Source of the DNA: Shigella phage SHSML-45
Sequence record: KX130863
Strand: one strand, 5' to 3'
Length of the DNA stretch: 64,000 nucleotides
Shown: positions 42,573 to 46,323 of the stretch, piece after piece
Layout of the letters: each line of letters opens with the position of its first letter
Numbering within the stretch: the stretch's first letter is position 1
The notes under the pieces: generated by a model
Databases searched by the model: none
The model's input: only the letters and a program-made list of their open reading frames with translations
Told to the model about the DNA's origin: nothing
Position numbers and translations under genes: made by a program

Positions 42573-42881
42573 ATGAGCGATCAGGTAAATCAAAACTATG
42601 AAGGACACGTTGACGACCAGTCCATCATGCTTTGGGAGAAGGAGGGAGAACAAGTAAGACTAACCGTATCTGAATTTCGTGGGAATCTATACATGGGAAT
42701 TCGTTACTGGCTCCAAGATATTACTGGAGAGTGGTTTCCAACGAAATCCGGCTTCTCTTTTCCTTATACCCTAGAAACTACGTCACAGCTATTCTACGCT
42801 TTTACGCAAATCCTCAGTGAATCCGAGGTCTTGCATGAAGTACAGAAACGAGCTGAAGAACTCAAAGCCAAGAATGCCTAG
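42573..42881 (+). CDS. hypothetical protein (102 aa)
   Basis: ORF. Confidence 0.4.
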   Translation: MSDQVNQNYEGHVDDQSIMLWEKEGEQVRLTVSEFRGNLYMGIRYWLQDITGEWFPTKSGFSFPYTLETTSQLFYAFTQILSESEVLHEVQKRAEELKAKNA

Positions 42882-42908
42882 TTCTTGGCTTTTTCTTTAT
42901 AAATGTAC

Positions 42909-42937
42909 TTGCTTTCGACTCAGTTTTCATATATAAT
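42909..42937 (+). promoter_or_regulatory. early promoter (TTGCTT-17-TATAAT)
   Basis: ttgctt 42909-42914, tataat 42932-42937, leader ATAAATTGATGAGAGA, ATG at 42969. Confidence 0.55.
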
Positions 42938-42968
42938 ATTTATATAAATTGATGAGAGATATAAATAA

Positions 42969-43940
42969 ATGACTAATGTAAAAGAATTTATTAAACGCTG
43001 TCAAGAAGCATATTATCAGGGTATGTCTTTAATCTCTGATGAGGAGTATGATTGCCTGGTAAAACGCTTCCCGTTAGAAGAAGAGATCGGGCCTAAGGGT
43101 GATATTCCACACCTATATCGTATGTATTCTTTACAGAAAGTTTATTATAACCGTGGGGATAAATCACCATTTAATCCTTTAGGTCAGGTAGAAACTGATA
43201 AGTTAGATGGTTGTGCAATTTCTCTGCTATATATTAACGGTGAATTTGTTCAAGCATTAACCCGTGGTAATGGTATTCTGGGAAATGATGTCACAAGCAA
43301 CGTAAGATTGCTGAACATCCCTAAAAAGATTTCCCAAAAAGTACCTACTCAAATCACTGGTGAAGTTCTAATTACAAAAGAAGTAGAAAATAAACGTAAC
43401 TTTGCCTCTGGTGCTATTAACCTCAAAGATAGTGATGCTTTCATACAACGCATTGGAGAAGGCGGTTTAATCTTTGTTGCTTATGGTATCCAATGTTCTG
43501 CTGAAGCTGTAGGTATTACAGAAGCATACTTAAAAGATATGCTTTGGCTAGAGAATGAGAACTTCTTAACAGTTGTTAATGTGCGTTCCTTCTTTAAATG
43601 GATTCCGACGGACGGTAAAGTTGTTCGTATTAATGACAACAACAAATTCTTCCGTGAGGGCTGGACAAATAAATTCCCTCGTGGAGCATTCGCCATTAAA
43701 GAGGATGAAGAAGGCGAGATTACAACTCTTACTAAAGTTGAATGGCAGGTAGGGGCTTCTGGTAAAGTAACTCCAGTTGGTTATTTCGAACCGGTAATTA
43801 TTGATGATGCTACGATTGTTAAAGCGACTCTTAATAACGTTGATTATATTAACTCTCTCGATCTAGAGATCGGTTGCCAGATTCGAGTGATTCGTGCCGG
43901 TGGTGTAATCCCGTGCATAGTAGAGCGAGTATACGATTAA
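42969..43940 (+). CDS. ligA: NAD-dependent DNA ligase, N-terminal portion (adenylation domain)
   Basis: KxDG adenylation motif in ETDKLDGCAISLLY; N-terminal LigA-like Ia region; stop codon before the Zn-finger domain. Confidence 0.7.
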   Translation: MTNVKEFIKRCQEAYYQGMSLISDEEYDCLVKRFPLEEEIGPKGDIPHLYRMYSLQKVYYNRGDKSPFNPLGQVETDKLDGCAISLLYINGEFVQALTRGNGILGNDVTSNVRLLNIPKKISQKVPTQITGEVLITKEVENKRNFASGAINLKDSDAFIQRIGEGGLIFVAYGIQCSAEAVGITEAYLKDMLWLENENFLTVVNVRSFFKWIPTDGKVVRINDNNKFFREGWTNKFPRGAFAIKEDEEGEITTLTKVEWQVGASGKVTPVGYFEPVIIDDATIVKATLNNVDYINSLDLEIGCQIRVIRAGGVIPCIVERVYD

Positions 43941-44083
43941 TACATAACCCTTTGCTACCCATCTACCATATCGGAATTATAAAGTGGTTATTGACATTTT
44001 CGCCGCTTAGGTATATACTATTATCATTCAGTTGAGGGATAGAAAGTTATGGCGAGGGTAAGCAAAGTTAGTTAAAATTGTAG

Positions 44084-44112
44084 TTGCTAAATGCTTAAAT
44101 ACTTGCTATAAT
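44084..44112 (+). promoter_or_regulatory. promoter (TTGCTA-17-TATAAT) inside the ligase gap
   Basis: ttgcta 44084-44089, tataat 44107-44112. Confidence 0.5.
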
Positions 44113-44139
44113 ATTTATATAAATTGATAAGGAAGAAAT

Positions 44140-44922
44140 TTGATGAAAATCGAAATTCCAACACAATGTCCCTCTTGTGGTTCTAAGCTCGATCTTGTCA
44201 ACGGACAATTATTCTGTCGTAATAAGTCCAACTGTCCAGCTCAATCAAGTAAGTTAATTGAGAACTTCTGTACAAAAATGAAGTTAAAGGGTTTTGGCCC
44301 GAAAACTATTGAGAAGCTGGAGCTGACGAAGATTTCAGAACTATTTTACCTAACCGAAGAAGATTTGGTTAGAGCCGTGGGTAGCAAGGTTGCCGCTAAG
44401 TTAATTAGCGAATTAAATACTAAAGTTCGCGGAGACATTGACTTTGGTTCAGTTCTCGGTTCTTTAGGAATCCCTCTAATTGGAGAGGTTGCAGCAAAGA
44501 AATTGTCCCAAAATTGCACCAGTTTTCAAGATGTGAGAGCTGATGGCAAAGCTGGAGAAAATTATAAAGCCTGGCTAAATTCCCCACAAGGCAAGGATGT
44601 TATCGAATTACCGTGGAAATTCACAACTGGTATTAAAGGTGCTAAAGCTGAGGTCATCATCACTGATGGTCTAGTAGCCCAACCAAACGGAATAACGGTA
44701 TGTATTACCGGATCTTTGCAAGATTTTGCAAATAGAACGGATGCAACAAACTATTTAGAAGGTCTAGGATATACGGTTAAGAAATCCGTTACCAAAGACG
44801 TCAAATACCTAATCTGTGAGGATGAATCGAAGCGTTCTTCCTCATCTTATAAGAAAGCCGAAACGAATGGGATAGAAATCCTGTCGATTAAAGAACTATT
44901 GGAGAAAAATAATAATGTCTAA
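44140..44922 (+). CDS. ligB: NAD-dependent DNA ligase, C-terminal portion (Zn-finger, HhH, BRCT-like)
   Basis: Begins with Cys4 zinc finger CPSCGSKLDLVNGQLFCRNKSNCPAQ as in LigA domain 3; C-terminal BRCT-like ITVCITGSL. Confidence 0.7.
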   Translation: MMKIEIPTQCPSCGSKLDLVNGQLFCRNKSNCPAQSSKLIENFCTKMKLKGFGPKTIEKLELTKISELFYLTEEDLVRAVGSKVAAKLISELNTKVRGDIDFGSVLGSLGIPLIGEVAAKKLSQNCTSFQDVRADGKAGENYKAWLNSPQGKDVIELPWKFTTGIKGAKAEVIITDGLVAQPNGITVCITGSLQDFANRTDATNYLEGLGYTVKKSVTKDVKYLICEDESKRSSSSYKKAETNGIEILSIKELLEKNNNV

Positions 44923-45682
44923 ACTGAACTGGAACGTAGAAGGTGTAACCGAGTCTCTGAAAGCAAAAGCCACTGCTCTGGGTGTTGCTGTAATCTCTCA
45001 AGAACAAGTAGCTGCTATCGCTGCTGAACTAGCTGCTGAAACTGGCAAAGACGTTACTGCTCGCTCTGTTGGCTCTAAGCTGCGTAAAGAAGGTTTCGAA
45101 GTACAGAAAGCTAACGAAGTACAGAAATCCCCGTGGACTCCTGAGCAGGAAGCTGAACTGGTTGATTTCCTGAACGCTCATGCTGGTCAGTATACCTATG
45201 CTGAAATCGCTGCTGCTGTAGCTGGTGGTCAGTTCGGTGCTAAACAGGTACAGGGTAAGATCCTGAGTCTGGAAATGACCGCTTCTGTTAAGCCAACCGA
45301 AAAAGCTGCTGCTGTTCGTTCCTTCACTCCGGATGAAGAAACTGATTTTGTTAATCAGGTTGTTGCTGGTGCTACTATTGAAGCTATCGCTGCTCACTTC
45401 GGTCGCAATATTAAGCAGATCCGTGGTAAAGCTCTGAGTCTGCTTCGTGAAGGTCGTATTGCTGCTATGCCGGTACAGGAAACTTCAAGTGCTAAAACTC
45501 GTGAAGATCTGTTAGAAGGTCTGGATCTGGTTAACATGACTGTTGCTGAGATCGCTGAGAAAACTGGTAAGTCTGAGCGTGGTGTTAAATCTATGCTGTC
45601 TCGTCGTGGTCTGGTTGCTAAGGACTATGATGGTGCCGCTAAGCGTGCTAAACTGGATGCAAAAGCTGCGGCTGCTGTATAA
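44915..45682 (+). CDS. DNA-binding protein with three internal HTH-like repeats
   Basis: Three ~60-aa repeats (AEIAAAVAGGQFGAKQVQGKILSL / IEAIAAHFGRNIKQIRGKALSL / VAEIAEKTGKSERGVKSMLSR); strongly host-like codon usage. Confidence 0.45.
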   Translation: MSKLNWNVEGVTESLKAKATALGVAVISQEQVAAIAAELAAETGKDVTARSVGSKLRKEGFEVQKANEVQKSPWTPEQEAELVDFLNAHAGQYTYAEIAAAVAGGQFGAKQVQGKILSLEMTASVKPTEKAAAVRSFTPDEETDFVNQVVAGATIEAIAAHFGRNIKQIRGKALSLLREGRIAAMPVQETSSAKTREDLLEGLDLVNMTVAEIAEKTGKSERGVKSMLSRRGLVAKDYDGAAKRAKLDAKAAAAV

Positions 45683-45741: not shown

Positions 45742-46323
45742 ATGGGGGAGATTACCCAGCAGTATCTTAAAACATTATTAAGATATGAGCCTGATACTGG
45801 AAATTTTTACTGGCTACCTAGAGAAAATAATCCTGCGTTCAATGCTAAGCACGCTAACAAACCTGCAGGCTATATGCATTCATCAGGCTATATTTATATA
45901 AAGATAACCTTAGAGTCAGGTATACAAAAATCTATGGGAGCACATAGGTGGGCCTTTCTATATATGGAAGGAGAAATCCCTGACAAGGTTGATCATAAAA
46001 ATAGAATTAAAACTGATAATACTTGGAATAACTTACGTGAAGTTACTTCCTCTCAAAATTCCGCTAATAGCTTTATAGGTAACAAGCTAGGCATTCGTAA
46101 CATAGAAGTAACAAAAAATAACACATTTAAAGTAACCATATCTAAAAACTCCAAAGTATTTAGAAAAACCCTAAAAACTCTAGGAGAAGCTCTGTGGTAT
46201 AGAGATAAGCTGCTTTTAGCCTTGTACGGAGATTTCGCAGCCCTAGATGCTCTAGATATAGAGAGGGTTAAACCGCAGAATATAGTGGATAACTTTACAG
46301 AGGAGTTGCTAGATAATGTTTAA
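45742..46323 (+). CDS. HNH homing endonuclease
   Basis: AHRWAFLYMEGEIPDKVDHKNRIKTDNTWNNLRE; between the ligase/DNA-binding genes and the helicase. Confidence 0.75.
   Translation: MGEITQQYLKTLLRYEPDTGNFYWLPRENNPAFNAKHANKPAGYMHSSGYIYIKITLESGIQKSMGAHRWAFLYMEGEIPDKVDHKNRIKTDNTWNNLREVTSSQNSANSFIGNKLGIRNIEVTKNNTFKVTISKNSKVFRKTLKTLGEALWYRDKLLLALYGDFAALDALDIERVKPQNIVDNFTEELLDNV

What the first reader, a model, noticed from the sequence alone, without database searches (positions are those of the whole stretch)
42969..44922. NAD-dependent DNA ligase encoded as two ORFs separated by a promoter-bearing gap
The adenylation half (KxDG motif) ends at 43940. The Zn-finger/HhH/BRCT half restarts at 44140 after 199 bp that contain a TTGCTA-17-TATAAT promoter and an SD. 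Either a two-subunit ligase is made, or the gene was split by a lost insertion.
Basis: partly seen in the sequence, partly recalled or inferred. Interest (0 to 1): 0.55.

Follow-up and report, generated by a model that had tools for sequence, protein, structure and literature searches.

The report
Phage T5 split DNA ligase genes

Summary
ORF1 (42969-43940) carries domain Ia, the KxDG adenylation domain and the OB domain of a LigA-type ligase. ORF2 (44143-44922) carries the Cys4 zinc finger, HhH and BRCT domains. They lie in different frames, 202 nt apart, and the gap has stops in all three frames.

The window is a T5-like phage, and these are T5 genes ligA (T5.116) and ligB (T5.117). The gap holds two promoters, which T5 records annotate as P-K28b and P-K28a.

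The split is conserved at the same residue boundary in all seven Demerecviridae groups sampled (46-99% aa identity). Both halves are under strong purifying selection. A homologous pair from phage PR1 has been solved as a "heterodimeric DNA ligase" on nicked DNA (PDB 9HU3). The T5 split was already noted in the literature in 2005-2006, so the finding is already known.

What this analysis adds:
- Uncultured T5-like phages with the same gene order carry an unsplit 555-586 aa ligase.
- In some relatives, GIY-YIG-type endonuclease genes or small accessory genes sit in the ligA|ligB slot.
- The promoter-bearing gap is more conserved than the two genes.

The parts
42864..42892 (+). Terminator-like hairpin followed by a T run. 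It ends the upstream unit (the PC4-like gene 42573-42881).
   Evidence: Scan (12-pair stem).
42909..42937 (+). ligA promoter: TTGCTT, 17-nt spacer, TATAAT.
   Evidence: Read from the sequence. It lies inside the unnamed promoter feature annotated in T5 record AY543070, which maps to window 42889-42963. The -10 opens the 25-nt module found.
42969..43940 (+). ligA: catalytic subunit, 323 aa (domain Ia, nucleotidyltransferase domain with K78xDG, OB fold).
   Evidence: Pfam PF01653 and PF03120. 98% aa identity to T5 ligA. E = 1e-102 to PDB 9hu3 chain A. dN/dS 0.04-0.15.
43941..44142 (+). 202-nt intergenic gap with stops in all frames. It is more conserved than the flanking genes.
   Evidence: The gap is 100% identical to T5, against 96.1% for ligA and 97.3% for ligB. 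No Rfam family matches it.
43991..44019 (+). Upstream gap promoter (T5 P-K28b): TTGACA, 17-nt spacer, TATACT.
   Evidence: Scan (11/12). The T5 feature 'promoter P-K 28b' maps to window 43971-44045. It is conserved upstream of ligB in all 13 phages compared.
44084..44112 (+). Downstream gap promoter (T5 P-K28a): TTGCTA, 17-nt spacer, TATAAT, with TG before the -10.
   Evidence: Scan. The T5 feature 'promoter P-K 28a' maps to window 44064-44138. Conserved in all 13 phages.
44107..44131 (+). 25-nt module (-10 plus leader) TATAATATTTATATAAATTGATAAG. It is 96% identical to the module at 42932-42956 in front of ligA.
   Evidence: the repeat finder. Seven copies in the window against 0 expected.
44129..44135 (+). 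Shine-Dalgarno AAGGAAG for ligB.
   Evidence: Read from the sequence.
44143..44922 (+). ligB: DNA-binding subunit, 259 aa (Cys4 zinc finger, HhH, BRCT). Its stop overlaps the D5 start at 44915 by 8 nt.
   Evidence: Pfam BRCT and HhH. 99% aa identity to T5 ligB. E = 8e-80 to PDB 9hu3 chain B. AF2 model with pLDDT 82; best PDB matches are 9hu3_B and E. coli LigA 2owo. dN/dS 0.05-0.11.

Best explanation
These are the ligA and ligB genes of a T5-like phage (Tequintavirus, Demerecviridae). Together they encode a naturally split, heterodimeric NAD+-dependent DNA ligase.

LigA (323 aa: Ia, adenylation and OB domains) should react with NAD+ to form the lysyl-AMP intermediate at K78. LigB (259 aa: Zn finger, HhH, BRCT) supplies the DNA-binding half, which completes the clamp around a nicked duplex and is needed for the steps after self-adenylation. 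The break falls in the short linker between the OB fold and the zinc finger, at about residues 391-401 of E. coli LigA.

Each gene is transcribed and translated on its own. ligA has its own early promoter. ligB is preceded by two tandem early promoters (T5 P-K28b and P-K28a) and an SD, and it is translationally coupled to D5. The ligA promoter and P-K28a share one 25-nt module (-10 plus leader), which may help to balance the two subunits.

Shown here: domain content, identity with T5 ligA/ligB, the family-wide conserved breakpoint, purifying selection, and a solved heterodimer of homologues.
Inferred: NAD+ use and nick sealing by this particular pair, balanced expression, and the origin by fission of a fused ancestor.
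For: - Identity: the region is 96.7-97.7% identical in nucleotides to T5 and relatives, where it is annotated as NAD-dependent DNA ligase subunits A and B.
- Domains: see Pfam results. ORF1 residues 214-320 align to E. coli LigA 284-390 and ORF2 residues 3-123 to 402-530, so nothing is missing or added at the junction.
- Conservation: the breakpoint is the same in 13 phages from 7 genera or subfamilies, down to 46-51% aa identity. Both halves have dN/dS of 0.04-0.15. All 120 best homologues of each half are stand-alone proteins of 310-340 aa or 247-263 aa, apart from three shorter entries (two flagged partial).
- Experiment on homologues: PDB 9HU3/9I5I hold chain A (339 aa) and chain B (248 aa), titled 'PR1 phage heterodimeric DNA ligase in complex with 21-mer nicked DNA containing phage nick sequence'.
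[quoted passage not shown] The same paper shows that an Ia+NTase+OB fragment of another LigA-type enzyme self-adenylates but cannot ligate (PMC1684257).
- Gap: both promoters are conserved upstream of ligB in all 13 phages.
Against: No experiment on this phage's proteins is available here, and no paper describing the PR1 structure was found in the searchable library. The HhH Pfam hit is just below its cutoff (25 against 27 bits). How the subunits hold together cannot be read from the sequence, since no extra dimerisation segment is visible. Balanced expression from the shared promoter module is conjecture, because the same module heads at least five other units in the window.
Confidence: 0.93

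Rival explanations
1. The two ORFs are remnants of a ligase gene disrupted by an insertion that was later lost. On this reading they are decaying and non-functional, and the phage relies on the host LigA.
For: Unsplit 555-586 aa relatives exist in the same synteny in uncultured T5-like phages. In some relatives the slot holds GIY-YIG or T5orf172 endonuclease-like genes.
Against: Both halves are intact and share the same breakpoint in more than 450 genomes and in lineages only 46-51% identical. dN/dS is 0.04-0.15, and catalytic and zinc-binding residues are invariant. Homologous halves form a solved heterodimer on nicked DNA.
Confidence: 0.02
2. One full-length ligase polypeptide is restored after transcription or translation, by a split intein (trans-splicing), an intron, translational bypass or a frameshift.
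For: Phage genes fractured by homing endonucleases and rejoined by split inteins are known (PMC2677866, listed). T4 gene 60 bypass is a precedent (my own knowledge).
Against: - There is no room for intein halves. ORF1 ends at the end of the OB fold, ORF2 starts 8 residues before the first zinc cysteine, and no Hint or intein Pfam hits appear.
- No intron or other Rfam family matches the gap.
- The gap has stops in all frames and carries two promoters.
- Relatives have 1-3 whole genes in the gap.
- The PDB homologue is deposited as two chains.
Confidence: 0.01
3. The halves are both functional but not an obligate complex. For example, LigB could act on its own as a nick- or DNA-binding or BRCT scaffold factor for the replication proteins encoded downstream, and LigA as a separately regulated adenylyltransferase.
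For: The genes have separate promoters. ligB is co-transcribed and translationally coupled with D5 and the replication genes rather than with ligA. In Vibrio phages the two genes are up to 1.4 kb apart.
Against: The two genes always co-occur next to each other and diverge at similar rates: LigA and LigB identities to the window track each other from 99% down to about 50%. The solved PR1 structure is a heterodimer on a nick. LigA-type N-terminal fragments alone do not ligate.
Confidence: 0.05

Closest known systems
Bacteriophage T5 ligA (T5.116) / ligB (T5.117), NAD-dependent DNA ligase subunits A and B
   Same: Same genes: 98% and 99% aa identity, the same 202-nt gap (100% identical), and the same promoters P-K28b and P-K28a. 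The neighbours also match: a PC4-like gene upstream, D5 and the DnaB-like helicase downstream.
   Different: Only point differences. This phage also has an HNH homing-endonuclease gene between D5 and the helicase, which T5 lacks.
PR1 phage heterodimeric DNA ligase (PDB 9HU3, 9I5I; released 2026-01-14)
   Same: Same two-chain architecture. Chain A matches ORF1 (E = 1e-102) and chain B matches ORF2 (E = 8e-80, 54% identity). It was solved on nicked DNA.
   Different: It comes from a Providencia T5-like phage whose sequences resemble those of the Priunavirus PSTCR5. Identity to the window proteins is about 53-55%. The proteins of this window have not been tested.
Bacterial single-chain LigA (e.g. 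E. coli LigA, PDB 2OWO)
   Same: Same domain order: Ia, NTase, OB, Zn, HhH, BRCT. The KxDG lysine, Cys4 finger and BRCT are present.
   Different: E. coli LigA is one 671-aa chain. Here there are two chains totalling 582 aa, with a shortened NTase and HhH region. The break is at the OB|Zn linker, and identity is only about 25%.
Compact unsplit LigA of uncultured T5-like phages (P0273 566 aa, P0277 557 aa, P0300 578 aa)
   Same: 36-45% identity over the whole of ORF1. Total length and gene order are the same: PC4-like, ligase, D5-like, DnaB helicase, DnaG primase, PolA.
   Different: They are one polypeptide with a roughly 10-20 aa linker where T5 has stop, 202 nt and ATG. No strong sigma-70-like promoter lies in or next to the gene.
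Fractured genes with split inteins and a homing endonuclease (Dassa et al. 2009, PMC2677866)
   Same: A phage replication or repair gene divided into two adjacent ORFs. In some relatives an endonuclease gene lies between them.
   Different: There are no intein halves at the junction. The halves stay separate and associate non-covalently.

Membership tests
NAD+-dependent DNA ligase (LigA family) | Nucleotidyltransferase domain with motif I KxDG and the other adenylation motifs | tested here: met
   PF01653 at 84 bits. K78, D80, G81, R99, G100, E132, D215, G216 and K244 are invariant in 40 homologues.
NAD+-dependent DNA ligase (LigA family) | N-terminal domain Ia, which confers NAD+ specificity | tested here: inconclusive
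   The motif AYYQG..ISDEEYD is present, with Y15 and Y27 invariant and Y16, E26 and D28 nearly so. It aligns weakly to the 'ISDAEYDRL' segment of a bacterial LigA (stretch 1, not significant alone).
NAD+-dependent DNA ligase (LigA family) | OB-fold domain following the NTase domain | tested here: met
   PF03120 at 78.5 bits, ORF1 residues 252-321.
NAD+-dependent DNA ligase (LigA family) | Cys4 zinc finger, HhH domain and BRCT domain | tested here: met
   C9, C12, C25 and C31 are invariant. BRCT scores 35 bits. HhH scores 25 bits, under its 27-bit cutoff. The AF2 model matches the 2owo Zn-HhH region, and phmmer aligns ORF2 to LigA residues 400-653.
NAD+-dependent DNA ligase (LigA family) | All domains on a single polypeptide | tested here: not met
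   Two ORFs in different frames, 202 nt apart, with stops in all frames of the gap.
NAD+-dependent DNA ligase (LigA family) | NAD+-dependent nick-sealing activity | not testable with these tools
   Only inferred, from the PR1 homologue structure title and from domain content.
T5-type split (heterodimeric) LigA/LigB ligase of Demerecviridae | Adjacent ligA then ligB genes, with the break between the OB fold and the zinc finger | tested here: met
   LigA ends ..IVERVYD and LigB starts MKIEIPTQCPSCG. This is the same boundary as in the 12 relatives compared.
T5-type split (heterodimeric) LigA/LigB ligase of Demerecviridae | Orthology to T5 T5.116/T5.117, and homology to the two chains of the PR1 heterodimer | tested here: met
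   98% and 99% aa identity to T5. E = 1e-102 and 8e-80 to 9hu3 chains A and B.
T5-type split (heterodimeric) LigA/LigB ligase of Demerecviridae | Physical association of the two subunits | not testable with these tools
   Shown only for the PR1 homologues, and only through the PDB entry title.
Split-intein fractured gene | N- and C-intein halves flanking the break | tested here: not met
   No extra residues at either end relative to LigA and no intein or Hint Pfam hits.
Intron-interrupted gene (group I or II) | A structured intron RNA between the exons | tested here: not met
   The Rfam E-value scan of 42800-45000 finds nothing in the gap. The gap holds promoters instead.

The most novel reading that the evidence does not exclude
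The fission of the ligase gene may have been caused, or fixed, by insertion of a strong tandem early-promoter module (P-K28b and P-K28a) into the OB|Zn linker of a fused ancestral gene. That insertion would have created the transcription start for the ligB-D5-helicase-primase-polymerase replication unit. On this reading the split is kept because the promoter block, not the split itself, is under selection. Three observations fit:
- The gap is more conserved than either gene.
- The promoter pair is kept directly upstream of ligB even where other genes have entered the slot.
- Unsplit relatives in the same synteny lack any such promoter.

A further possibility is that separate subunits allow regulated assembly of the ligase, so that the site-specific nicks of T5-type genomes escape sealing.
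Probability: 0.3. Interest if true: 0.4.

Novelty: already known. Interest (0 to 1): 0.15.

Why it matters
A naturally split ligase shows that the catalytic and DNA-clamping halves of LigA can work as separate proteins. That is useful for enzyme engineering and for understanding ligase assembly on nicks, and perhaps for how T5-type phages manage their genomic nicks. However, the T5 case has been annotated since 2004-2005, and a heterodimer structure of a homologue was released in 2026, so this window adds no new kind of system. The modest new points are evolutionary: unsplit relatives in the same synteny, a slot reused by mobile genes, and a promoter block under stronger constraint than the genes.

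Tried and rejected
- Sequencing error or frameshift: rejected. The ORFs are in different frames, the gap has stops in all frames, and the layout is identical in more than 450 genomes.
- Intron or known RNA in the gap: the Rfam scan was negative.
- Split intein: no extra residues and no intein domains.
- Insertions in close relatives: those seen in oldekolle, chee24 and MET_P1 lie upstream of ligA, not in the gap.
- Intervening genes of Vibrio phages: tested as homing endonucleases, and none is one. One is DprA-like, one is crAss001_48-like and the rest are unknown.
- Mini-ORF MARVSKVS* (44050-44076) after P-K28b: not conserved in phiKp27 or My1, so probably not a gene.
- NJ tree of the LigA part, meant to count fission events: fused and split forms are interleaved on very short internal branches with no support values, so a single event and multiple events cannot be told apart.
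- Literature searches for a paper on the PR1 or T5 heterodimeric ligase found none in the library.

Full report
**What is there.** The region contains two clean ORFs on the + strand: 42969-43940 (323 aa) and 44140/44143-44922 (260/259 aa).
- Pfam places the NAD-dependent ligase adenylation domain (PF01653, 84 bits) and the ligase OB domain (PF03120, 78.5 bits) in ORF1.
- Pfam places BRCT (35 bits) and an HhH motif (25 bits, just under its cutoff) in ORF2.
- The KxDG lysine is K78.
- ORF2 begins MKIEIPTQCPSCG...FCRNKSNCPAQ, a Cys4 zinc finger whose four cysteines are invariant in 37 homologues.
- ORF1 residues 214-320 align to E. coli LigA 284-390, and ORF2 residues 3-123 to 402-530. The break therefore sits in the short linker between the OB fold and the zinc finger, with nothing missing and nothing added.

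The two ORFs are in different frames, and the 202-nt gap (counted to the ATG at 44143) has 7, 4 and 5 stops in its three frames. A second and better match, TTGACA-17-TATACT, lies at 43991-44019 and was missed. No terminator-like hairpin lies between the genes. One lies upstream of ligA at 42864-42892.

**Identity.** The 2.3-kb region matches 452 phage records at 90-99% identity for nearly all of them, all T5-like (Tequintavirus/Epseptimavirus), including T5 itself at 96.7%.
- The gap carries two annotated promoters, P-K28b and P-K28a. They map onto the two hexamer pairs found here.
- An unnamed promoter precedes ligA.
- The neighbours match T5: a PC4-like gene upstream, and D5 and the DnaB-like helicase downstream.
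[quoted passage not shown] 2005 (PMC1684257). T5 papers list ligA/ligB as two subunits (PMC3632103).

**Is the split functional?**
- *Conserved breakpoint.* I compared 13 phages from Tequintavirus, Epseptimavirus, Sugarlandvirus, Myunavirus, Priunavirus, Thalassavirus and Pogseptimavirus (LigA 50-99% and LigB 46-99% aa identity). LigA always ends at the same point (..GG[VI]IP.I[VI]E...) and LigB always starts a few residues before the first zinc cysteine.
- *Purifying selection.* Where dS is not saturated, dN/dS against the window is 0.04-0.15 for both halves.
- *Stand-alone homologues.* All 120 best database homologues of ORF1 are 310-340 aa except one partial entry. All those of ORF2 are 247-263 aa except two shorter entries.
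- *Solved heterodimer.* PDB entries 9HU3 and 9I5I contain a 339-aa chain A (E = 1e-102 to ORF1) and a 248-aa chain B named 'DNA ligase subunit B' (E = 8e-80 to ORF2). An AlphaFold model of ORF2 (pLDDT 82) retrieves 9hu3_B first. That entry is titled 'PR1 phage heterodimeric DNA ligase in complex with 21-mer nicked DNA containing phage nick sequence' and was released 2026-01-14. E. coli LigA 2OWO follows lower in the hit list.
- *N-terminal half alone is insufficient.* An Ia+NTase+OB fragment of another LigA-type enzyme self-adenylates normally but cannot ligate (PMC1684257).

Together these support a two-subunit enzyme. LigA does the NAD+-dependent self-adenylation chemistry. LigB provides the Zn/HhH/BRCT DNA-binding half needed for nick sealing. 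For this phage's own proteins this remains an inference from homology.

**Alternatives excluded.**
- Decay after an insertion is contradicted by the selection data.
- A split intein is excluded because there are no extra residues at the junction and no intein domains.
- An intron or other known RNA is not detected.
- Bypass or frameshifting over 202 nt with stops in all frames is implausible. It is incompatible with relatives that have whole genes in the gap.

**Origin and the 'lost insertion' idea.** An exhaustive search of cluster representatives found compact unsplit ligases of 555-586 aa (323 + 259 = 582). They are 36-45% identical to ORF1 over its full length, and their scores are interleaved with those of split forms.
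- Three of them lie on metagenomic contigs with T5-like gene order: PC4-like, fused ligase, D5-like protein, and (on the two longer contigs) DnaB helicase and DnaG primase, with PolA following on one. Related phages with an unsplit gene at this site therefore exist.
- Their junction is a short linker, e.g. ..IIPKIINVLSSGTGRIIAPTECPSC...
- A quick NJ tree does not resolve whether fission happened once or several times.
- The slot is used by other genes in some split lineages. Vibrio phages carry 1-3 small accessory genes there (gap 443-1374 nt).
- Klebsiella phages vB_Kpn24-P3 and AmPh_EK80 carry a T5orf172/MUG113-type gene and a GIY-YIG-type endonuclease-like gene respectively, directly after the ligA stop. 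Serratia phage Kamaji carries an unassigned 204-aa gene.

An insertion origin is therefore plausible but unproven. It does not conflict with the enzyme being functional now.

**The gap itself.** The gap is more conserved than the genes.
- Window against T5: gap 100%, ligA 96.1%, ligB 97.3%.
- Window against TrudiGerster: gap 97.0%, ligA 82.2%, ligB 90.7%. Binomial P is about 1e-3 for T5 and about 1e-7 for TrudiGerster.
- Across the phage collection the gap is at least 95% identical in 436 records, whereas the whole region is only 90-95% identical in 307 records.
- The tandem pair TTGAC[AG]-17-TATA[CA]T and, about 93 nt downstream, TTGC..-17/18-TATAAT lies directly upstream of ligB in all 13 phages. 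This includes the Vibrio phages, where it follows the inserted genes.
- The unsplit relatives have no comparable promoter in or next to the ligase.
- The -10 and leader of P-K28a (TATAATATTTATATAAATTGATAAG) is a 25-nt module. It also precedes ligA and occurs 7 times in the window against 0 expected. It is therefore a general early-promoter class rather than a ligase-specific device.
- ligB overlaps D5 by 8 nt. The gap promoters thus probably head the ligB-D5-replication gene unit.

This suggests, without proving, that selection acts mainly on the promoter block and that the fission is tied to it.

**Verdict.** However, this is the well-annotated T5 ligA/ligB split ligase, now with a solved heterodimer from a related phage. 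Novelty: already known. Interest: low (0.15). The only new material is comparative detail on the evolution of the split.

Noticed in passing
window 45742-46323 (+): An HNH_3 homing-endonuclease ORF (193 aa, Pfam E = 5.5e-14) lies between D5 and the DnaB-like helicase, overlapping the helicase start. T5 has no gene here. Only 10 records in the phage collection carry it (e.g. Salmonella phage Shivani at 100%, HildyBeyeler at 99%), so it is a sporadic mobile insertion.
   Followed up: partly
window 1240, 10509, 12387, 14856 (-) and 42932, 44107, 54330 (+): A 25-nt module (-10 plus leader), TATAATATTTATATAAATTGATRAG, occurs 7 times with at most 2 mismatches (0 expected by chance). It looks like a class of near-identical T5 early promoters and 5' leaders heading several transcription units on both strands.
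   Followed up: partly
window 43941-44142: The ligA-ligB intergenic gap is more conserved than the flanking coding sequence: 100% against 96-97% versus T5, and 97% against 82-91% versus TrudiGerster. The stretch between the two promoters is conserved as well as the hexamers. Its role beyond promoter function is unknown.
   Followed up: partly
window 44050-44076 (+): A mini-ORF, ATG GCG AGG GTA AGC AAA GTT AGT TAA (MARVSKVS*), follows an SD-like GAGGGA downstream of P-K28b. The ATG is not conserved in Klebsiella phage phiKp_27 or Pectobacterium phage My1.
   Followed up: partly
L016 1759-2457; L018 1759-2418; L017 1870-2484: Some relatives carry a roughly 200-230 aa gene exactly in the ligA|ligB slot. 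Klebsiella phage vB_Kpn24-P3 has a gene with T5orf172/MUG113 domains and a zinc treble clef. AmPh_EK80 has one with a GIY-YIG domain. Serratia phage Kamaji has one with no Pfam hit. In the two Klebsiella phages the gene overlaps the ligA stop by 8 nt.
   Followed up: partly
L002 668-1141; L003 667-867; L004 668-940 (upstream of ligA in relatives); window 42882-42968: The space between the PC4-like gene and ligA is a second variable slot. Oldekolle, chee24 and MET_P1_179_112 carry one or two small hypothetical ORFs there that this window and T5 lack.
   Followed up: no
window 42573-42881 (+): The gene upstream of ligA has a PC4 (transcriptional coactivator p15, ssDNA-binding) domain (Pfam E = 1.5e-8). 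It keeps its position next to the ligase even in one of the distant unsplit relatives (L019).
   Followed up: no
L019 1-1429 (-): The metagenomic T5-like contig with the unsplit ligase also encodes NAPRTase/NAMPT-like and ribose-phosphate pyrophosphokinase-like genes, which belong to NAD+ salvage. That would fit a phage carrying an NAD+-dependent ligase.
   Followed up: no
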